From: Savitreella phatthalungensis
Lineage: Eukaryota
NCBI GenBank assembly: GCA_051599415.1
Contig: AP039701.1
Coordinates: forward strand, 310,001-374,000
Direction: 5' to 3'
Length of the DNA: 64,000 bases
The notes under the pieces are model-generated. The model searched no databases, was not told where the DNA came from, and saw nothing but the letters and a program-made list of their open reading frames with translations. Below are positions 4,401 to 13,756 of this stretch, piece after piece (positions within the stretch are counted from its first letter, which is position 1; each line of letters begins with the position of its first letter). The position numbers and the translations under genes are program-made.

Positions 4401-5363
4401 AGTTCTACCCACCTCTCATTTCACTGCTTCAGGATTCATCTACCATCTGCCGTCCAATTCCCATCCGAGCACCAGTCACTCGGTTCCACTCTACACAGAT
4501 TGAAGAATCATAGAATAGCCTAGGACGGCTTTTGTATGATAGGCATTTATACTCCCTGATCTGATTTGCCTTCTGCCTCTTCTTAAGATCTACTCCTGCT
4601 TGGGAAAGTCAGCATCTCTTTCTAGCTGGGTAGAGGCAGGATCGGTCGATACCCACGCATTTCTGCCATGCTCATATACGTATAGGCAGTAAGATTGAAT
4701 GAATCAGTAGCTTGGGTCAGTTGCTCAGTCATTCGCTCACTCACTCTCACTGTCTGAGTATCATTCCGGTCGATCGAGCAGTGATTGTCTACAGCTAAGT
4801 AGGTGAGGCGAGGTGGGTCCATGGGTCAGCACATGCTCAACGCCAGCTCGCCAATCTAGCGACTTGACGATCGAGTGGCATCACTTGGTCAACTTCAAGA
4901 CGTGTCTAGTAGGTCACGACCAGTCTGCTTTCGCTAGTCAGAGCGCCAAGTTCCTGTGGTACTCATCACTCGATCAGCCAAGAGCAGTCGACGTTTTCCC
5001 ACAGAGGGATCAAGAACGACAGCACGTCACCATACGCAACAAGAATTCTCCGAGTGTATCAACCACACTTATCGCTCATTCCTTTGACCAGCAATCTCAT
5101 CAACTTGAAACACAGCGTTTCAAACACGGACAGCATCATCGTCGTGTCCCAGTATACGCTGACTTGCTAGCTTGCCGACTCTAGCGTCTCGTCTCTTTCG
5201 TGTCAAGACTATTAAATCCTTGAGCTTGCTCAAGCTATCCCACGGAACCGAATCAACCGCGAAAGGACGTCTACCTCACCTTCCAGACACGTGTATCTCA
5301 TCCCATATCCCGCAGCAGCATCGACAAGCATGATACGGTAATATATTGCTGGAATTCGTCAGC

Positions 5364-7346
5364 ATGACATCTTACAGCTTCATTGCTGCTGATCGGACAC
5401 GATGTCCTCCTTCGCAGCGTAGTAGCAATACCGATCACAGGCAGGACCACGAACGCATCTTCAAGCAGGAGCAAACGACAAGTGACGGCACGCAAACAAT
5501 CCGTGATCACGACGATGTGAATGCCAGAAGGTCGATCTCGTCATCAACATCCCCATCGGTCGCATTCGATCTCATCATCAGACAACAGCCCGATCGAGCA
5601 CGTGTCTGTTCGTCGCGCGGCAGGGACAGGCGCAATGTCGACCCGCCGCCCATCATTCAACTCAGGATCAGTCAGCTCGGTCGACGGCGGAGCGTGCATG
5701 CATCCTCCGCCAAATCAGAATACCTTGGAGAAGATCCCGAGACGTCGAATTATCTACAAAATCCCTATCTTTTCATGTGCTGTGTTCTGGTCAATGCTCG
5801 AGACGAGCGACCATGCACAGTACCAGCCTCAGACTGTCTCTCAGGCACCATTGTGTCCTCATTGTTCCGCCTGAAGGATCCTGATTCACCTGGCGGCGCT
5901 GGTAATGGTGGCTTTTTCATTTTTGCTGACATCTCAATGCGCCTTGAAGGCGTCTTCCGCCTCAAGTTCAGCTTGTTCGAGGCAGGTGCGATCGCAGGCG
6001 GTCCAGAAGCCTCTGCAGGTTCCCCTTCGCTCATTGCAGGTGGCGAAGGAGGTAGAGAGGTTTCGCATATCGCCAGTGTCGTCTCGCAGCCATTCCAGGT
6101 CTATTCTGCAAAGACGTTCCCTGGCATGTCCCATTCGACTTTGCTGTCGCGGTCGTTCTCCGATCAAGGTGTCCGTATCAGGATCCGCAAGGAAGCCGGT
6201 GCGAAAGGTGCTGGCGGTAACGGCGGTTCCAGTCTTGGCCGAACGAGAAGTCGCGACGATTCACGATCAGACTCAGACGATGATGAGGATGGCAGACCTG
6301 TGCAAAAGGTCGCACGATCTTACATGCCGCCGATCGCACATCATGCACGCCCGCAACCGCTTGCATTGACCGACAGCGCGTGGCATCCGCACTCTTCGTT
6401 GGCGTCTCAGGAGATGCGGTCTCCAATGTCTGGAACATTTGCAAGTCCGTCGCACGGCCCGTTATCGGCCTCGTCGTCCTCAACATCCGGAGGACACCAT
6501 CATCAGTATCACTCCTACCACTCCCGGCCGACCGCACCAGGTATGCCTTCCCCGCTGAGGTCTTCCCACTCCGATGGCCCAGTGTCATCCTCGTACGCAG
6601 GAGACTTGTCGGGTTACTCACTCGGCGGAGGCAGTAGCAGCTTTGCCCGAAGAGAGAGTGTGGATTCCGGCAGGACTTCGCTTCCGGGCATAAGCTCCAT
6701 GAACGCTCCGTGGACACCGTCCACCCCCAACTATCCTTACGCCTCGCCTCACAACGCGCAATTAAGCAGCAGCCTTAATCAACCGCCGTCTACAGGTCTC
6801 GCTTCGGCTCCACGTCATCCTCTGCCCGGTCATGTATCTCGAGAATCGTCCACCGGCACCAACTCCGGCTCATCGTCCGGTCCAGCTGGTGGTCCTAATT
6901 CAACTTCGAGCGCATCGCGCGATCGAGACTTGTACCACCCAATGCCTCCACCTCCTGGTGCTGGGTCAAGTTTTCCATCCCGCCCGCCTCCACCCCACCA
7001 CGCATTCCCCCCACCACCACCTGCACCCCATCAGCAGGCATCTTACCGCCAGCCTCCGCAGCGTGAAGCGGAAACTTACTCAAATCGATACCCTCAAGAT
7101 CGATCATCTTCAGGACTTCCACCGATCATGCCAAACCACCCGGATGGTCCAGGCAGAGTATCCTACCCTTCCTTGGTAGATCGATCACCTACACAATCTC
7201 AAAGCCCCGCAATCTCGTACTACCCACAACAGCAGCAACAGCAACAGCAGCAACAGCGGCGTAGTGGTCAGGACGGCGAGCGGGATTCAAGTGGTGGTAA
7301 TGGTGATGGTAGACCTCGACTACCAGGTGTAGCTTCCTTATTGTGA
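5364..7346 (+). CDS. Velvet-domain transcriptional regulator (VosA/VelC-like)
   Basis: Velvet motifs LIIRQQPDRAR..DRRNVDPPPIIQL, YLQNPYLFM, GFFIFADISMRLEGVFRLKFSLFE and SQPFQVYSAKTFPGMSHSTLLSRSFSDQGVRIRIRKE, followed by a long S/P/Q-rich tail. First ATG is at 5364. Confidence 0.93.
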   Translation: MTSYSFIAADRTRCPPSQRSSNTDHRQDHERIFKQEQTTSDGTQTIRDHDDVNARRSISSSTSPSVAFDLIIRQQPDRARVCSSRGRDRRNVDPPPIIQLRISQLGRRRSVHASSAKSEYLGEDPETSNYLQNPYLFMCCVLVNARDERPCTVPASDCLSGTIVSSLFRLKDPDSPGGAGNGGFFIFADISMRLEGVFRLKFSLFEAGAIAGGPEASAGSPSLIAGGEGGREVSHIASVVSQPFQVYSAKTFPGMSHSTLLSRSFSDQGVRIRIRKEAGAKGAGGNGGSSLGRTRSRDDSRSDSDDDEDGRPVQKVARSYMPPIAHHARPQPLALTDSAWHPHSSLASQEMRSPMSGTFASPSHGPLSASSSSTSGGHHHQYHSYHSRPTAPGMPSPLRSSHSDGPVSSSYAGDLSGYSLGGGSSSFARRESVDSGRTSLPGISSMNAPWTPSTPNYPYASPHNAQLSSSLNQPPSTGLASAPRHPLPGHVSRESSTGTNSGSSSGPAGGPNSTSSASRDRDLYHPMPPPPGAGSSFPSRPPPPHHAFPPPPPAPHQQASYRQPPQREAETYSNRYPQDRSSSGLPPIMPNHPDGPGRVSYPSLVDRSPTQSQSPAISYYPQQQQQQQQQQRRSGQDGERDSSGGNGDGRPRLPGVASLL

Positions 7347-7445: not shown

Positions 7446-9643
7446 TTACTTTGGAGTGAGATCGCTAGAGGAGTCAGTGGTGGCGAGGTTGGACGATTGA
7501 GCTTGCCTGACTGCTAGGAGTCGACGTTTTTCAAGCCACCTGTGTTCCGGGACTACGAGCCAAGAGATGAATCCAAAGATTGTGATTGCACCGAGGATGA
7601 TACCGGCGTAGTTGAGCGTCTGCGCGGTGACAGGGAAGACGTAAGGGGAAACGAGGACAGCGACAGCGAACCAGTTGAAGGGAATCGACAGGAAGATGAG
7701 AGGACGTGATAGGAAACCGAGTCTCCAGGCGCCGTCAGTGAACTCGCCAGGGGTGAGGAAGGCTCTGCCAAGGGCAACGACACCGTACGCGGCAAAGGTC
7801 GGCACACCCGCAGCCGAGACGAGAGAGGTGAAGGCGACGGCGGACGGGAGGATGGTGAGGAGGAGGAGGGAGGAGACTAGCCAGATGACGGTGATGGCGT
7901 TGCGCGGGTTGCCGTGGTGGTCGACGCGAGCGATCCAGTCTGAGAATGGGAGGACGCCGTCTCTGGCGACTGCGAAGACGAGGCGCGATGCTGCGACCGA
8001 GGCGACTGAGCAGTTCAGGACAAGGCCGACGATGCAGATGATGTTCATCAGGATGTGACCACCTTGGCCGAGCGCGAGCGCGTACACGTTCACGAACGGT
8101 TGTGGCGACACAAACGACAGGAACGTGTCGATGTCGGGCGCACAGAACAGGAACAGGATCACGATCGGGATACCCAGCACTGCAGACCAGAAGGCGGACC
8201 ACCAGAGACCACGTGCGGCGTTGCGCGACGCGTGTTTCGTCTCTTCTGCCACGTGACCTGACGCGTCGTACCCAACCAGAATACCGGCCGTCGACAGGAA
8301 CGACAGACACCAGTCCCAGCCGGTGGAGGCGCCCGTGCCGTTGTACTGCGTGAGGAATGCGTCGTGGGCGGATCTGAAGCCGTACGTCTTCGAGACCGCG
8401 ATCGGGAACCAGATGATGTTGAGGATGAAGTCAAGGAGAACGACAGCAGAGGCGACTCGGAACACGTACTTGTACGTCTTTGGCGGGAGGTACTGGATTC
8501 CCATGGCGACGGCCAGCAGGGCTTCTGCACAGATCCACTGGACAGCACGGAACTTGACGTCCGTTGTGTCGGTGGTAAAGGACAGGTCGAAGACGCTGAT
8601 CTCCGCAAGCATGTAGTTCGCAGCTGACTGAGAAACACTTGCAGTGAAGGTCGTCCATGCCGTCGTCGTCCACCACGCGACGATGAATCCAGTCAGACGA
8701 CCGTACCGCGGGCCAGCGGCTTCGGCAGCCCAGAAGTACAGGGATCCTGCTGCAGGCAGGGCAGAACAAATCTCAGCGAGCATGCCGGCGGTGATGAAGG
8801 TGAAGACACAGGTGACGAGGTAGGAAGTCCAGTAGGCGAGTGGACCGCCAGCGCCGATGCCGAGGAAGTAGGTAACACGGATGCCGCCGACAAAGTACAT
8901 GGCCGCAAAGGCAGCGCTGAAGTTGTCAATCAGCTGGAAGCTGCGGTGCAGGACGGGCTTGTAACCAAGACGTTGCTAGAAGGGAAACAGGTCAGCGCTC
9001 ATGGATTCTTTGAGAAGTGCAGTCGTACATCATCTGCACGACCACAAGTCATCGGTCCACTCTTCCGCCCAACCCATGAAAGCCTCGACTTGTCAAAAGA
9101 GAGAGGGGCAGACGCAGGCGGTAGGAGGAAGGGATGAAAGATGACTCAGACACAGGCTCGCTTTTTCTTCCGCAGGTGTGACCCTGTTCAAGTTCACGGG
9201 TATAATCTCAGCCTTTCACGGCGGATCGAGTGTCTCAAGAGCGGTCTTGCGCCGCAAGAACACCATCGGAGAGACACACTATCCGCCGTTTCCGACACCC
9301 CGAAAACAAGCCTTGTGTGTACATGCAGGATGTACGTGATGGACGATGAGAGTGGAGGTAACTTTTTTTTTGGAGAGAGGAAGAGAAGATGCAAGCCTTA
9401 CCACGGTAGTCCTCACCTTCGATCTCTTCATCCTCCCGTGGAGATGATGAAAGAGGAGGGATTGGACTACCGGAACACGTGAGTGTGTGTGTCTGATGAT
9501 TTTGAGGTCCGTGAGCAAAGGGGAACACATACAAGTTGCTGTTCATCAGAATTGAATGAGGTGCGTGGTGTCGAGAGTGGGTCAATGACCTCCTGATCGT
9601 GCGTATGCGCGCCAGTCTGCTTGGTGGAGCGCATCGTAGCCAT
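7446..9643 (-). CDS. APC/ACT-family permease, putative Thi9-like thiamine transporter; exons 9643-9533 and 8975-7446 (about 546 aa)
   Basis: Multi-TM APC permease (LAEICSALPAAGSLYFW, GYDASGHVAEET, SRLVFAVARDG). Splicing GTATGT (9532) to TTCTAG (8976), with branch GCTGAC, joins ...SDEQQL|QRLGYKPVLHRSF in frame. Thiamine specificity is inferred from the intronic TPP aptamer. Confidence 0.9.
9150..9320 (-). promoter_or_regulatory. TPP (THI-box) riboswitch aptamer in the permease intron
   Basis: Minus strand reads AGGCTTGTTTTC-GGGGTGTC...GGCTGAGATTATACCCGTGAACTTGAACAGGGTCACACCTGCGGAAGAAAAAGCGAGCCT. It contains the UGAGA motif, P2 GGGTG/TACCC, long P3 (ACGGCGGAT/ATCCGCCGT, GTGTCTC/GAGACAC), P5 CAGG/CCTG and an extended P1. 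Confidence 0.92.
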
Positions 9644-10237
9644 CACTATCAAGACACTCGTTCAGGAATAACGACTCTCGTTGCAGGTGTTTTAGGAGGA
9701 GTTTGTTGAATGTAGCGCTGGTGCGCTGGGAGAGTCGACGAGTGAGTAGTGATTCACTGACTGGATGGTTGAGGATAGGTACTGAGTATGTGGATGTAGG
9801 AGGTGGATGTGGATGTGGGTGTCTGTGTTGGTAGGAGAGTGGAGGATATGGTTGGGAAGAATGTTTAGTGACGGTTCATAGTCCCCAAGGGTGATTGGTG
9901 ATTCACATATGTGCATGGGAGAGTGATATATTTGATAAGACTGACAGAAAATTTTTCTTCTTCTCTTCTTTCTGCAAGTGTTCAGCTGCAGACCGTCAAC
10001 TGATTTAATCTGACAGGATTTGACACTTATTTCCGATCTAGGCTGAAGATTAGAGTTGCGGTGAAGACTATAAAACTCAACATTGGTACACGTGCAAATA
10101 GTCAAGGCATTGCATGAACCATGCAGTAGTCCAGGTGAATGCTTGCACCATTGACTCCAGCTTTCTCTTCCTGCTTTCCAGTCGTTATGATCTTCTATAC
10201 ATTGTGCTGGAGTACGCTAAGTTCCTACTTTTGGGAG

Positions 10238-10282
10238 CTCGATGATCAGAACAGGATCTCGATGATCAGAACAGGATCTCGA
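10238..10282. repeat. 20-bp tandem duplication (GATGATCAGAACAGGATCTC x2) spanning the MCM10 stop codon
   Basis: Exact copies at 10241-10260 and 10261-10280. Confidence 0.9.
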
Positions 10283-12263
10283 GATCATCATCCTCATCAT
10301 CCTCATCTGCGTCTACTTTGCCCTTGGCTTGCAATTCGAGCTCCTTCTTACGACGCTTTGCTTCCTCTAGACCGTCTCTTGTGAATTTGAGACTAGCCTC
10401 TGTGCGTTTGATGGTGAGATCGACATCTGCTGCAGATCGGCCTTGAGCCAGATTGCCTGTGTCTGCGTCTTCTGGGCCATTGCCACCTGCAGGAGCGGCC
10501 GCAGCGGTGGCAGAAACACTCCCGAATAGGCGTTTCGTGGGGTCAAACCCGATCTTCCGTAGAGTTTGCGCAGAGAACATCCTGCCATCTGCTTGATCGT
10601 CGGCAGGCTTGCCATTCGGATCGGTCGTCTCGAAGTATTCGTGCCCTGCTGATTGCGCTGTGGTGCTCATGAGTTTTGCTAGCATTTCGCGCTCGCGCTG
10701 GCGTTGATCGGCTTCGCGCTGGAGGCGATGCACACCGCGGACTGTCGACTCGAACTCGCTCTGGCTGACCTCATTCGATTGCAGGCCGCCACCGCCACTG
10801 TAGCCTGTCACCCGGTCGCCGCCTTCGGAATGGCCGTGTTGTGTGACACCGTACTTGCGCCTCCGCTCCATCTCAGGGTTGACCTTCTGGGCGCGGCGAT
10901 ACTCGTTGCCTGGCTGCCAGGTCGACCCGCCTGATGACTTTTTGCCTGATCGAGGATCAAACAGGCGCGTCCCAACCGCAAATTCGATCCGCTTGTTGAC
11001 CTGCTTCGACAGGGCGACGTCGATGTGGTAGTCACACACGTCCTGCTTCGATGCATCGATCCAGGCACCACACCGTTGACCATCCGCCTTCATGCTCCTG
11101 CAGATTCCGAAATCAGCGGCTCGCGCGATTTCCAGAACGGCCTCCCCGTCTGCGGCTTTCAGACTCAGCCGCTGACCAGAGCCAGGGCGGGGCTTCTGCA
11201 CTTGCGGATTGAGCAGCAGTACGACCGCACCGACGGAGAGCGTCCAGTGTTGGTCGAATGCGGACTCATATAGGAAGACTGCGAGCTCCATCTGGAGATC
11301 GGTCAGTTGGAGTACGCTGTACTTGGCCTTACCGTCTTGAGTCTGCCGAGCATCTGTCTTTGCAGCAACGATGCCCCAGACCACGACGTCCTCGCATTCC
11401 CCATCTGATCGCATCTTCGCAATCTCGTAGTCCGGCGGACTGGCGAGAGCGAACAGCTGACGAATTGACATGGTCTTGTCTGCTGCCGCACAGCACCTGA
11501 CGGCGTCATTGTCGGCCACACGTCGGTCGTAGATTCGGAGCCCGGTGACGCTACAGCGTTCCTTGATTGTTGAGTCGTCTGCAGCGGCGGAAAAGGCAGG
11601 CACTGGGTTGAACTTGCTCAGCTTCCTCGACTGTGCCTTTAGACGTGTTACTGCACGCTTTTCAGCAGCAGCCTGCTCGTCACGTGCAAATTTGAGCTTT
11701 TCGTTGAAGCTGTGCTTTGGCTTCGATTGAGGCCCAGACTGGGGCACAGACTTCTGCTTCTCTGGAGTGCGTCGTAAGGAGACGTCCTTGGCTGTTTTCC
11801 CCTTGTCAATGCCAAGCAGGACGCGGGCTGGAGATACCGGTGGCTTCCGTTTTTGTGGAGAAGGAGAGCTGGCGACCTGGAGTGTGCTTCCAGTGGTAGC
11901 ACGTTTTGGACTAGCGAATGGGAGGACAGATCTGATAGACGGACTTCGACCTGGTGAAGCGCCTGTGATATGGGCAATTGGTCGAGGTGGGGGTGTCACA
12001 GGTCGAGTTGGAAGCTCCGCAGATTGCTTGTCCGATGGATTTGAGTCAAAGGTGGAGACTGTCGATGCATGAGCAGAGGACTCGGGCACGTGGATCAAGT
12101 GTGTTGCTGTGGCATCTTGGGAGTGGGCACAGTTCAGAGGTGTTTCTGCCGATGGATCTCTATCAGCGAGTTTGCGCTTCTTCTTCAGCTTTGCTCTGAT
12201 GAGCTGTTCCTTGAGGGCGATGACTTCTTCGTCATCACTCGAGTGGATGATGAGGTCGTCCAT
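10266..12263 (-). CDS. MCM10: DNA replication factor Mcm10/Cdc23
   Basis: OB-fold (VVWGIVAAK..KYSVLQLTDL..WTLSVGAVVLLLNP) plus the CCCH zinc finger FGICRSMKADGQRCGAWIDASKQDVCDYH. Confidence 0.9.
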   Translation of the reverse strand: MDDLIIHSSDDEEVIALKEQLIRAKLKKKRKLADRDPSAETPLNCAHSQDATATHLIHVPESSAHASTVSTFDSNPSDKQSAELPTRPVTPPPRPIAHITGASPGRSPSIRSVLPFASPKRATTGSTLQVASSPSPQKRKPPVSPARVLLGIDKGKTAKDVSLRRTPEKQKSVPQSGPQSKPKHSFNEKLKFARDEQAAAEKRAVTRLKAQSRKLSKFNPVPAFSAAADDSTIKERCSVTGLRIYDRRVADNDAVRCCAAADKTMSIRQLFALASPPDYEIAKMRSDGECEDVVVWGIVAAKTDARQTQDGKAKYSVLQLTDLQMELAVFLYESAFDQHWTLSVGAVVLLLNPQVQKPRPGSGQRLSLKAADGEAVLEIARAADFGICRSMKADGQRCGAWIDASKQDVCDYHIDVALSKQVNKRIEFAVGTRLFDPRSGKKSSGGSTWQPGNEYRRAQKVNPEMERRRKYGVTQHGHSEGGDRVTGYSGGGGLQSNEVSQSEFESTVRGVHRLQREADQRQREREMLAKLMSTTAQSAGHEYFETTDPNGKPADDQADGRMFSAQTLRKIGFDPTKRLFGSVSATAAAAPAGGNGPEDADTGNLAQGRSAADVDLTIKRTEASLKFTRDGLEEAKRRKKELELQAKGKVDADEDDEDDDLEILF

Positions 12264-13756
12264 AGGAAGCTGATAGGTCTATCAGAGATGCATAGCTCAG
12301 AATATGCGTTGGCATCGATTGCCTTTCTAATCAGCCTGTGGATTTGCTTGGCAACATGAAGAGAAGTGCGGGCCTGTAACTTTGGGAGCTCGCTCCTTTG
12401 AACCCCGGAGTACACGAATGCAGTGGAGTTGGAGATTCACACACAGAGAGATATACACAGGTACTGAGCGATCTATGGATGAAGGTGATGACTGGTGTAG
12501 ATGACGTTGTCTATGTAAGAGGGATGGTTGGCTGTCATCTGTGCATCCTTCAGTTGATCAACGATGATTTCCATGCTGCAGATATATGTGATGCTTCCTC
12601 AACAAGATGCAGATGGTATGTTGATCACGTGTAAGGCTCCTTTGCAGCATAAATCTATTTGCCTTAAGAGCATATCCATCCCTAATTTTATATTGAGTTG
12701 AGCTGAGCTGAGCTTTGAATCATTCGAAATGGGTGACGTACACTGATCGAATCTGGGTCTTATATCCATATATTTATATATATATGTATATATATCTATT
12801 GTAGAAGCTATATATCTGTAATTAAAGGTTCCGAAGATGCATCTATCGATTAATTAGAGAAGAGTAGAGGCATCCTTGTAAACACATAAATTATATCTCT
12901 GATAGACGTGAACAGTACTACTAAAATTTATTTCAATTATTTCAATTCAATCCTACGTAAGTACGTACGTACGTATAAGATATATCCACATGATATCGAT
13001 CAGAATAAGTGCCTACATATTATAATCACAATTTAGATTAAGGCTTAACACCTGTGTAGTATACACTACATGTACATGCACTGTACACACATAAAGCCGT
13101 CCACATCTGTGCATACATCCAACTGCATATCCAACTCCTCTTCATCATACACCAACAACTACTACACTCAGATACCAAATACACATCACTCTCACTTCAC
13201 TCACTCCACTCACCTCACTCACTTCGCTCAACTCATCTCATTCATCTACCTCTGCCTATTTGACTCAGACACCAACCTATCTGGCTCTCTATCAACCTTG
13301 ATACACCCTCTAGAGACACAGAAGAACTTCTCAGACCTTCTTCAAAAGAAGGCGCATCTCTCGAGCGAGCGCATCGTAATCTACAACAACGAGTCAGGTG
13401 ATCCAAGTCGAATACAGCATCTGACAAGCTTGGTGAATCTTTGTCCTACATCCATTCCTGACAAACACACTCTCACCCGCACATAATCGCGCAGGCTTTG
13501 GTCCCGCGTCCTCTGTCACTCACTTGCTCTCTCGCTCTCTCTACCTTTTTCGCTCTCCCTTCTCTATTCTGCGCAGAGCTCTTTCGCGAGTCTTCATTAG
13601 ACCAACCCCGATCAACTTCTCCTCTCCCGAAACAGGACCTCGCAACTACCTTGCGAACCTATCCGATGCGCACTCACTAAGCGCAGCTGCTCCATCAACG
13701 ACTTATACACCGTTCAGTTCCGAAGCTTTGTTCCTTTCAAACGTATTGATCTGATC

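What the first reader, a model, noticed from the sequence alone, without database searches (positions are those of the whole stretch)
8976..9532. Candidate expression platform: three 5' splice sites and competing long-range pairings
Seen: the productive donor GTATGT (9532) and alternative donors GTAAGG (9401) and GTACGA (9028) share one branch point and acceptor. Using either alternative retains an in-frame TAG at 9469-9467. A segment just inside the productive donor (ATCATCAGACACAC, about 9500-9487) can pair with TGTGTCTGA at the 3' base of P1 (9154-9146) or with GTGTGTCT..GATGGT in P3 (9279-9262), both competing with the aptamer fold. Inference: a Neurospora NCU01977-like long-distance switch with different pairing partners. 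The 9028 donor would also put ATG 9052 in frame (MTCGRADD|QRLGY), allowing an alternative N-terminus.
Basis: partly seen in the sequence, partly recalled or inferred. Interest (0 to 1): 0.75.

Follow-up and report, generated by a model that had tools for sequence, protein, structure and literature searches.

The report
Thiamine riboswitch intron in yeast transporter
A thiamine-sensing RNA switch sits in the first intron of a yeast thiamine-transporter gene and probably decides which splice site is used, a known fungal arrangement whose pairing details here differ from the textbook case.

Summary
The interval is the 557-nt first intron (9532..8976, minus strand) of a THI9-type (APC family) permease gene of Savitreella phatthalungensis. 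It holds a TPP aptamer at 9312-9148 (RF00059, 43 bits, below the curated 54.3; E 8e-7). The host gene is not of the NCU01977/DUR31 family.

The 9-bp pairing 9496-9488 with 9154-9146 is real. It does not overlap P1, persists when the aptamer is enforced (probability 0.87), and is no stronger than a reversed-sequence control. The pairing with P3 has predicted probability 0.

It is a decoy copy of the P1 5' strand lying 3 nt inside the alternative donor GTAAGG (9401). It pairs with the P1 3' strand at -22 kcal/mol (11 of 2000 shuffles; controls 1051 and 1345 of 2000).

Seven metagenomic THI9-like loci carry a TPP aptamer in the same intron position. Across all eight introns the 70 nt after the first donor are complementary to the P1 3' shoulder (combined p 2e-6; controls 0.16 to 0.81).

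Donor 9028 and the alternative N-terminus are unsupported. No RNA data could be obtained. Verdict: a new member of a known kind, with an NCU01977-like principle but different anatomy.

The parts
9533..9643 (-). Exon 1 coding part, 37 codons (MATMRST...DEQQL)
   Evidence: ORF listing. The NCBI protein P0001 equals exon 1 plus exon 2 exactly, 546 aa.
9527..9532 (-). Productive 5' splice site S1, GTATGT
   Evidence: The junction is phase 0, and the same position is used in 7 comparator introns. Mostly unpaired in both modelled states.
9488..9496 (-). alpha, UCAGACACA, 36-44 nt inside the intron
   Evidence: 9-bp complement of 9154-9146, -14.0 kcal/mol. Pair probability about 1.0 free and 0.87 with the aptamer enforced. 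Not separable from the composition control.
9404..9472 (-). Local hairpin with a 9-bp stem (9472-9464 with 9412-9404). It holds the in-frame TAG 9469-9467 and the donor-like GTGAGG 9416-9411.
   Evidence: MFE and pair probability about 1.0
9396..9401 (-). Candidate alternative 5' splice site S2, GTAAGG
   Evidence: It lies 89 nt 5' of the aptamer, like the strong S2 donors 56-108 nt upstream in 5 of 7 comparators (L020 36 nt, L003 none). Its use is not shown.
9379..9398 (-). Decoy of the P1 5' strand (AGGCUUGC ... UCUUCC). Its start is part of the 8-nt repeat AAGGCTTG (9400-9393 = 9314-9307).
   Evidence: Pairs with 9171-9154 at -22.0 kcal/mol. Reached in 8 of 2000 and 11 of 2000 shuffles; controls 1051 and 1345 of 2000. 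Pair probability about 1.0 ligand-free. The repeat is reached in 61 of 2000 shuffles.
9148..9312 (-). TPP aptamer (P1 9313-9303 with 9164-9154; P2; long P3 about 9290-9216; P4/P5)
   Evidence: RF00059 at 43.0 bits, E 8.1e-7, model positions 1-105. The isolated fold gives the TPP architecture at -72.8 kcal/mol.
9146..9154 (-). alpha', UGUGUCUGA, directly 3' of the P1 3' strand. Its UGUGU can alternatively pair with ACACA 9318-9314 (P0).
9018..9046 (-). 12-bp hairpin that buries the donor-like GTACGA (9028-9023). ATG 9052-9050 lies just 5' of it.
   Evidence: Pair probability 0.76 to 1.0 in both states
8991..8995 (-). Branch-point motif CTGAC
   Evidence: Only CTRAY motif within 80 nt of the acceptor
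8976..8978 (-). 3' splice site TAG
   Evidence: Exon 2 starts at 8975.
7446..8975 (-). Exon 2, 509 codons, APC-family permease (THI9-like)
   Evidence: Pfam AA_permease_2, 1.3e-44. Homologues at about 60% identity are named 'Thiamine transporter thi9' by their sources.

Best explanation
This is the riboswitch intron of a THI9-type thiamine transporter gene. Thiamine pyrophosphate most likely lowers transporter output by diverting splicing from the productive 9532|8975 junction. The mRNA then keeps the in-frame TAG at 9469-9467.

Shown here:
- the gene model;
- the aptamer;
- the conserved intron position;
- the complementarities and their statistics.

Inferred mechanism, ligand-free RNA:
- The P1 3' strand (9171-9154) pairs with a decoy copy of the P1 5' strand that starts 3 nt inside the alternative donor 9401.
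- This helix stacks end to end on alpha:alpha' (9496-9488 with 9154-9146).
- Together they bridge about 340 nt and pin donors 9416 and 9401 at a three-way junction with the 9472-9404 hairpin. The first donor is left open, so the full intron is removed.

Inferred mechanism, TPP-bound RNA:
- P1 (9313-9303 with 9164-9154) captures the 3' strand and the decoy helix dissolves.
- Splicing then shifts to 9401/9416 or fails. Either outcome gives a truncated reading frame.

alpha:alpha' would be a largely constitutive bridge, not the ligand-sensitive element.
For: Gene model and aptamer:
- Aptamer: RF00059, full-length match, E 8.1e-7; canonical fold of the isolated segment.
- Gene model: P0001 equals exon 1 plus exon 2.
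- The Protomyces homologue P0006 shares the N-terminal motif across the junction.
- The same intron position holds TPP aptamers in L003, L005/L015, L021/L022/L027, L024, L029/L030 (RF00059, E 3e-9 to 6e-3). L020 and L040 have them by motif reading only.

Predicted structures:
- The ligand-free MFE and ensemble contain decoy:P1-3' and alpha:alpha' at probability about 1.0 and P1 at 0.
- With the aptamer enforced, the ensemble costs 9.5 kcal/mol (-202.4 against -211.9). That is within the range of tight ligand binding (my own knowledge).
- Ligand-free accessibility: S1 is 0.23 to 0.95 unpaired; S2 positions +4 to +6 are 0.15, 0 and 0; S3 is 0.

Statistics:
- The decoy is specific: 11 of 2000 shuffles, against 1051 and 1345 of 2000 for the controls.
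- Class-level complementarity between the S1-proximal region and the P1-3' shoulder reaches p below 0.05 in 4 of 8 introns and 0.057 to 0.059 in 2 more. Combined p is 1.8e-6, with clean controls.
Against: - No RNA evidence of any junction could be obtained.
- The aptamer scores below Rfam's curated cut-off (43.0 against 54.3 bits).
- Modelled accessibility of S2 does not clearly rise in the aptamer-enforced state. Positions +3 to +5 open, but -2 to +1 become paired with 9355-9352.
- In the window S1 is the consensus donor and S2 the weaker one, the reverse of the comparators. A shift to S2 is therefore less obviously favoured.
- alpha:alpha' is not distinguishable from CA/UG-rich composition.
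- Pairing of the S2 window with the aptamer 3' half has p at or below 0.052 in only 3 of 6 comparators and is absent in the L024/L029/L040 clade.
- No sequence of a close relative was available, so there is no covariation test for the window's own helices.
- All structures are thermodynamic predictions on a 580-600 nt RNA.
Confidence: 0.5

Rival explanations
1. Splicing block or intron retention without alternative donors. TPP binding simply reduces removal of the whole intron, and the retained TAG 9469-9467 ends translation. The GTAAGG, GTGAGG and GTACGA motifs are chance.
For: - Donor-like hexamers occur at chance density: 4 seen against about 2.4 expected.
- S2 is weaker than S1 and is not clearly unmasked in the aptamer-enforced model.
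- Donovan 2018 proposes control of access to the first donor, with stop-containing unspliced product, for Candida DUR31 (passages).
- Comparator L003 has no donor between S1 and the aptamer.
Against: - 6 of 7 comparators have a consensus donor 36-108 nt upstream of the aptamer, and 9401 sits in the equivalent place.
- The decoy strand begins 3 nt inside 9401.
Confidence: 0.25
2. True NCU01977-type switch. alpha (9496-9488) is the ligand-sensitive partner, competing with the aptamer for 9154-9146 or for P3.
For: - The 9-bp perfect complement lies 36 nt from S1 and is reached in 8 of 2000 shuffles.
- Its pair probability is about 1.0.
- UGUGU of alpha' can alternatively extend P1 by 5 bp with ACACA 9318-9314.
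- There is class-level support for S1-proximal pairing.
Against: - alpha' does not overlap P1 proper. The pairing persists at 0.87 with the aptamer enforced, while P0 reaches only 0.12.
- The reversed control is stronger than the real partner.
- alpha:P3 has probability 0, against P3's own -34.1 kcal/mol stem.
- It has 9 bp rather than at least 11, and lies 170 nt from the 3' splice site.
Confidence: 0.15
3. Degenerate aptamer. The intron is spliced constitutively and the complementarities are relics or chance.
For: - The score is below the Rfam gathering threshold, with a 78-nt insertion in P3.
- A 2022 in-silico paper notes that thi9 riboswitches lack experimental validation and may have lost function (passage).
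Against: - The match is full-length, with CUGAGA and GCGGAAG cores and all helices.
- The closest core resembles L003, which passes the threshold at 59.9 bits.
- The intron fold z-score is -3.5.
- Li & Breaker report that shortening P3 is tolerated in NCU01977.
Confidence: 0.07
4. Alternative N-terminus. Donor 9028 joined to 8975 lets ATG 9052 start a shorter transporter (MTCGRADD|QRLGY...).
For: - The frame is correct.
- A 53-nt intron with the branch motif 8995-8991 is geometrically possible.
Against: - GTACGA is fully base-paired in a 12-bp hairpin in both states.
- Four AUGs (9431, 9324, 9266, 9077) precede ATG 9052 after the TAG.
- There is no counterpart in 7 comparators.
Confidence: 0.03

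Closest known systems
Neurospora crassa NCU01977 (DUR31) TPP riboswitch, 'Type II' long-distance switch (Li & Breaker 2013, PMC3597705; Results read)
   Same: - The aptamer sits in a long intron inside the coding region.
- There are several donor-like sites and premature stops.
- A segment under 60 nt after the first donor is complementary to sequence at the 3' side of P1.
- The expected logic is that thiamine represses a transporter.
   Different: - The host protein family differs: APC permease rather than sodium-solute symporter.
- alpha' abuts P1 rather than overlapping it.
- The pairing has 9 bp rather than at least 11.
- There is no RGCGGYRRY core.
- alpha' lies 170 nt, not under 60 nt, from the 3' splice site.
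- The element that excludes P1 is a second, separate strand next to the alternative donor.
NMT1/THI4-type and 'Type III' fungal TPP riboswitch introns (Mukherjee 2018, PMC5882874, section 7 read; Cheah 2007 recalled, not read here)
   Same: - There are two donors with a stop between them.
- An aptamer strand pairs near the proximal donor when ligand is absent.
   Different: - The intron is 557 nt, against 200-400 nt for Type III.
- The strand involved is the P1 3' strand, not P4/P5 (the latter recalled).
- There is an additional S1-proximal helix.
THI9-associated TPP riboswitches of fungi (Moldovan 2018, known to me only through citations in Donovan 2018 and a 2022 RNA Biol paper; paper itself not in the library)
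   Same: - Same gene family and, in my seven metagenomic comparators, the same intron position.
   Different: - The intron is longer (557 against 193-378 nt).
- Donor strengths are reversed.
- There is no 21-nt micro-exon after the intron.
- The pairing sequences differ.

Membership tests
TPP riboswitch aptamer (RF00059) | Score at or above Rfam's curated gathering threshold | tested here: not met
   43.0 bits against 54.3. E is 8.1e-7 in a 1.2-kb search. The loss is attributable to a 78-nt insertion in P3.
TPP riboswitch aptamer (RF00059) | Full-length P1-P5 architecture with conserved CUGAGA and GCG.AAG cores | tested here: met
   Model positions 1-105 aligned. The isolated segment folds into P1, P2, P3, P4/P5.
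TPP riboswitch aptamer (RF00059) | Association with a thiamine gene, conserved in relatives | tested here: met
   The host is a THI9-like permease. 13 of 18 scanned loci had RF00059 hits at E of 0.01 or less; 12 of them lie in the equivalent intron and one (L013) lies 3' of its gene.
TPP riboswitch aptamer (RF00059) | Binds TPP | not testable with these tools
   Needs in-line probing or ITC
NCU01977-type long-distance switch | Host gene of the DUR31/NCU01977 sodium-solute symporter family | tested here: not met
   Pfam AA_permease_2 / AA_permease. NCU01977 is in the SSF/SLC5 family according to Donovan 2018.
NCU01977-type long-distance switch | alpha within 60 nt downstream of the first 5' splice site | tested here: met
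   alpha at 9496-9488 is intron positions 37-45
NCU01977-type long-distance switch | alpha' overlaps the 3' shoulder of P1, so alpha:alpha' and P1 exclude each other | tested here: not met
   alpha' at 9154-9146 starts where P1 ends. The pairing stays in the MFE and at probability 0.87 with P1-P5 enforced.
NCU01977-type long-distance switch | [quoted passage not shown] | tested here: not met
   9 bp, UCAGACACA. Criteria taken.
NCU01977-type long-distance switch | alpha' within 60 nt of the 3' splice site | tested here: not met
   9146 to 8976 is 170 nt
NCU01977-type long-distance switch | Thiamine shifts splicing from S1 to downstream donors | not testable with these tools
   No RNA run was listed
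Type III / NMT1-like alternative-donor switch | Two donors with an in-frame stop between them, upstream of the aptamer | tested here: met
   9532 and 9401 (also 9416), with TAG 9469-9467 between. This is at sequence level only.
Type III / NMT1-like alternative-donor switch | Aptamer strand complementary to the proximal-donor region | tested here: met
   9398-9379 with 9171-9154, -22.0 kcal/mol, 11 of 2000 shuffles
Type III / NMT1-like alternative-donor switch | Intron of 200-400 nt | tested here: not met
   557 nt. Criterion taken.
THI9 thiamine transporter family | APC-superfamily permease orthologous to S. pombe Thi9; transports thiamine | tested here: inconclusive
   Pfam match. Many homologues at 59-63% identity are named 'Thiamine transporter thi9' by their sources. 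No direct comparison with S. pombe Thi9 was made and no transport assay is available.

The most novel reading that the evidence does not exclude
THI9-class riboswitch introns, so far classed apart from the long-distance 'Type II' mechanism, generally use long-range pairing between the region after the first donor and the P1 3' shoulder. The Savitreella intron shows a split form of it. One part is a near-constitutive bridge (alpha:alpha'). The other is a TPP-sensitive decoy of the P1 5' strand fused to the alternative donor, so that one 25-nt strand (9171-9146) reads out ligand state and intron geometry at once.
Probability: 0.3. Interest if true: 0.55.

Novelty: new member of a known kind. Interest (0 to 1): 0.35.

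Why it matters
TPP riboswitches are the only riboswitch class known in eukaryotes. Only a few fungal expression platforms have been dissected: NMT1, THI4, NCU01977 and Candida DUR31.

The passages I read restrict the long-distance mechanism to urea-transporter-family genes. They also say that thi9 riboswitches are unvalidated.

If the class-level signal found here holds, long-range intron bridging is a general solution for transporter riboswitches. The Savitreella intron would then offer a compact test case that separates a structural bridge from the ligand-sensitive strand. If it does not hold, this is one more ordinary fungal TPP riboswitch intron.

Tried and rejected
Data sources that gave nothing:
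- The window's whole genome is not held.
- Rfam at gathering threshold over the whole window gave 0 matches. The aptamer appears only in the E-value search.
- 18 further THI9-like loci had no TPP match at E of 0.1 or less. The remaining 43 of 79 loci were screened only with a regular expression.
- The Moldovan 2018 paper is not in the library and appears only in reference lists. It may already classify THI9 introns by mechanism.
- Supplements of Li & Breaker and of Mukherjee et al. were not opened.

Analyses that led nowhere:
- A naive intron finder meant to derive this genome's donor preferences gave mostly false positives and was dropped.
- Covariation between near-identical locus pairs is too thin to count:
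  - L005 and L015: two alpha' changes, both wobble-compatible, and one alpha change that loses an end pair.
  - L021 and L027: one change that loses an end pair.

Readings rejected:
- alpha:P3 pairing (probability 0).
- Donor 9028 with the alternative N-terminus.
- A cassette-exon reading of 9090-9029 was considered but has no support.
Full report
**What is there**

Read on the minus strand, the interval is an intron.
- Exon 1 runs from ATG 9643 to 9533 (37 codons).
- The intron runs from GTATGT at 9532 to TAG at 8978-8976 (557 nt).
- Exon 2 is an open frame of 509 codons, 8975-7446.
- The join is phase 0. It reproduces exactly the 546-aa NCBI protein 'hypothetical protein PYCC9005_004146 [Savitreella phatthalungensis]' (P0001, 100% identity). 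This species is a Taphrinales yeast.
- The protein is an APC-family permease (Pfam AA_permease_2, 1.3e-44).
- Many homologues at about 60% identity are named 'Thiamine transporter thi9' by their sources.
- It is therefore not of the NCU01977/DUR31 family, which Donovan et al. 2018 place among sodium-solute symporters (passages).
- The flanking genes are a velvet factor and MCM10. Neither is thiamine related.

**The aptamer**

- Rfam at curated thresholds finds nothing in the 64-kb window.
- An E-value search of 8700-9900 finds RF00059 at 9312-9148, minus strand: 43.0 bits (cut-off 54.3), E 8.1e-7. All 105 model positions align, with a 78-nt insertion in P3.
- The isolated segment 9322-9144 folds at -72.8 kcal/mol into:
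  - P0: ACACA 9318-9314 with UGUGU 9154-9150.
  - P1: 9312-9303 with 9164-9155.
  - P2, a long P3, and P4/P5.

**Check of the observation**

- All motifs are at the stated coordinates, and there is a further donor-like GTGAGG at 9416.
- The TAG 9469-9467 is in the exon-1 frame.
- Donor 9401 would retain 131 nt and donor 9028 would retain 504 nt.
- The only branch motif near the acceptor is CTGAC at 8995-8991.
- Donor-like hexamers are not enriched. GTRHGD occurs 562 times in the window on both strands against 564 in shuffles. That is about 2.4 expected per 557 nt, against four seen besides S1.

**The pairings**

- alpha (9496-9488, UCAGACACA) is a perfect 9-bp complement of 9154-9146 (-14.0 kcal/mol).
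- With the P3 5' strand it can form 14 bp with a bulge (-17.7 kcal/mol). P3's own stem is worth -34.1 kcal/mol.
- In the ligand-free ensemble of a 601-nt pre-mRNA segment, alpha:alpha' has probability about 1.0 and alpha:P3 has 0.
- alpha' begins where P1 ends. With P1-P5 enforced, alpha:alpha' stays in the MFE (-192.5 against -198.7 kcal/mol) and keeps probability 0.87. The competing 5-bp P0 reaches 0.12. It is therefore not a ligand-exclusive pairing.
- Statistically, the 9-nt run is reached in 8 of 2000 dinucleotide shuffles.
- By duplex energy the real partner gives 113 of 2000, and a reversed copy of the partner gives 22 of 2000 (likewise).
- The CA-rich alpha region pairs with any UG-rich sequence of that composition. 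Several such tracts lie nearby.

**What excludes P1**

- In the MFE, the strand 9171-9154 pairs with 9398-9391 (AGGCUUGC with GCGAGCCU) and 9384-9379 (UCUUCC with GGAAGA). This strand is the P1 3' strand plus its 5' neighbour.
- That helix is contiguous with alpha:alpha' on the 3' strand.
- The upstream partner is a decoy of the P1 5' strand. The 8-mer AAGGCTTG occurs at 9400-9393 and at 9314-9307 (reached in 61 of 2000 shuffles). It starts inside the donor GTAAGG at 9401.
- The decoy duplex is -22.0 kcal/mol, against -19.5 for true P1 plus P0.
- It is specific: 11 of 2000 shuffles, against 1051 and 1345 of 2000 for the reversed and exon controls.
- A 9-bp hairpin (9472-9464 with 9412-9404) ends two bases before 9401. 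It contains the TAG and most of GTGAGG 9416.
- Ligand-free, S1 is largely unpaired. S2 positions +4 to +6 are paired, the GU of 9416 is paired, and 9028 is fully paired inside a 12-bp hairpin, 9046-9035 with 9029-9018.
- Enforcing the aptamer costs 9.5 kcal/mol of ensemble energy.
- A weakness: in that state S2 is not cleanly exposed. Positions +3 to +5 open, but -2 to +1 pair locally.

**Relatives**

- A scan of JGI metagenomes with an alignment of 13 homologues returned 79 loci.
- A motif screen flagged 26 of them.
- Of 18 submitted to Rfam, 13 had RF00059 at E of 0.01 or less.
- Of 18 others, none did at E of 0.1 or less.
- In L003, L005/L015, L021/L022/L027, L024, L029/L030, and by reading in L020 and L040, the aptamer lies in an intron at the same place as in the window: after a '...L' codon and before 'xxLGYK(P/Q)'. 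Intron lengths are 193-378 nt. The donor positions in these loci are my inference from frames and motifs.
- Six of the seven have a consensus donor (GTAAGT, GTATGT or GTGAGT) 36-108 nt before the aptamer, and a weaker first donor. In the window the strengths are reversed.

Test of the NCU01977 principle: pairing of intron positions 6-75 with the 40 nt from the P1 3' shoulder, against dinucleotide shuffles.

| Intron | Shuffles reaching the observed energy (of 1000) |
|---|---|
| Window | 31 |
| L003 | 59 |
| L005 | 0 |
| L021 | 253 |
| L024 | 550 |
| L029 | 4 |
| L040 | 57 |
| L020 | 1 |

- Fisher's combination gives 1.8e-6 for all eight introns. It gives 4.7e-5 for the least favourable set of six lineages.
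- Three control partners give 0.16, 0.65 and 0.81.
- In L005, L020 and L029 the downstream partner covers the P1 3' strand itself. This is the arrangement described for NCU01977.
- The S2-window test is mixed: 3 of 6 comparators at p of 0.052 or below, and none in the L024/L029/L040 clade.

**Comparison with the literature**

- Li & Breaker 2013 (Results read) define the long-distance switch as follows:
  - alpha lies under 60 nt from S1.
  - alpha' overlaps the right shoulder of P1.
  - There are at least 11 continuous pairs with core RGCGGYRRY.
  - alpha' lies under 60 nt from the 3' splice site.
- The window meets only the first of these.
- Mukherjee et al. 2018 (section 7 read) and a 2024 survey (passage) tie this 'Type II' mode to urea-transporter-family genes. 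They describe a 'Type III' mode (two donors, a stop between, intron of 200-400 nt) that has not been tested experimentally.
- THI9-associated riboswitches are credited to Moldovan et al. 2018, which I could not read.

**Conclusion**

- The finding is a real TPP riboswitch intron in a gene family where such riboswitches are already known.
- The specific claims need correction:
  - The ligand-exclusive element is most likely the decoy strand at donor 9401.
  - alpha:alpha' is at best a constitutive bridge.
  - alpha:P3, donor 9028 and the alternative N-terminus are unsupported. Four AUGs precede ATG 9052, and no comparator has a counterpart.
- Everything about actual splice-site use remains inference, because no RNA run was listed.

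Noticed in passing
L013:1902-2009; also L006 about 4380, L014 about 2534, L016 about 4362: Four metagenomic loci encode a more distant APC permease (42-44% identical). Each carries a TPP aptamer core about 150-250 nt downstream of the end of the coding match, on the same strand. L013 scores 61.1 bits, above Rfam's cut-off, and no ORF of 100 aa or more follows on that strand. This looks like a 3'-UTR riboswitch, an arrangement not among the four fungal types in the section of Mukherjee 2018 that I read.
   Followed up: partly
L024:2372-2410, L029:1440-1480, L040:1778-1818 (approximate): In this clade a conserved CUAAC branch motif, a pyrimidine tract and a YAG lie directly after the aptamer, 30-60 nt before the productive acceptor. 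In L029, use of this proximal acceptor would give an in-frame stop (N L D *). The S1-proximal alpha element pairs with this CUAAC region. This suggests alternative 3' splice-site control.
   Followed up: partly
L005, L020, L021, L024, L029, L040 just after the riboswitch intron; window 8975-8955: In the Pezizomycotina-like comparators the riboswitch intron is followed by a 21-nt micro-exon (xxLGYKx) and a second short intron. In the window this micro-exon is fused to the main exon.
   Followed up: no
window 9517-9512 with 9001-8996: A predicted 6-bp pairing (probability 0.95 to 1.0 in both states) joins the region 15 nt after the first donor to the bases immediately 5' of the branch motif CTGAC. 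L021 shows an analogous 7-bp pairing next to its UACUAAC. It could help close the long intron, or it could be an MFE end effect.
   Followed up: partly
window 9047-9146 and 9018-9046: About 130 nt of predicted stem-loops lie between the aptamer and the branch point, including a 12-bp hairpin. The comparators have nothing equivalent: their aptamer-to-acceptor distance is about 40-100 nt. The function is unknown.
   Followed up: no
L003, L020, L021, L025 aptamer cores: The conserved aptamer motif GCGUAAG contains a donor-like GUAAG in these loci. The window has GCGGAAG instead.
   Followed up: no
window 5334-7346 (+) and 10266-12278 (-): The neighbouring open frames encode a velvet-factor protein and an MCM10-like protein (Pfam). 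Neither has a link to thiamine.
   Followed up: yes
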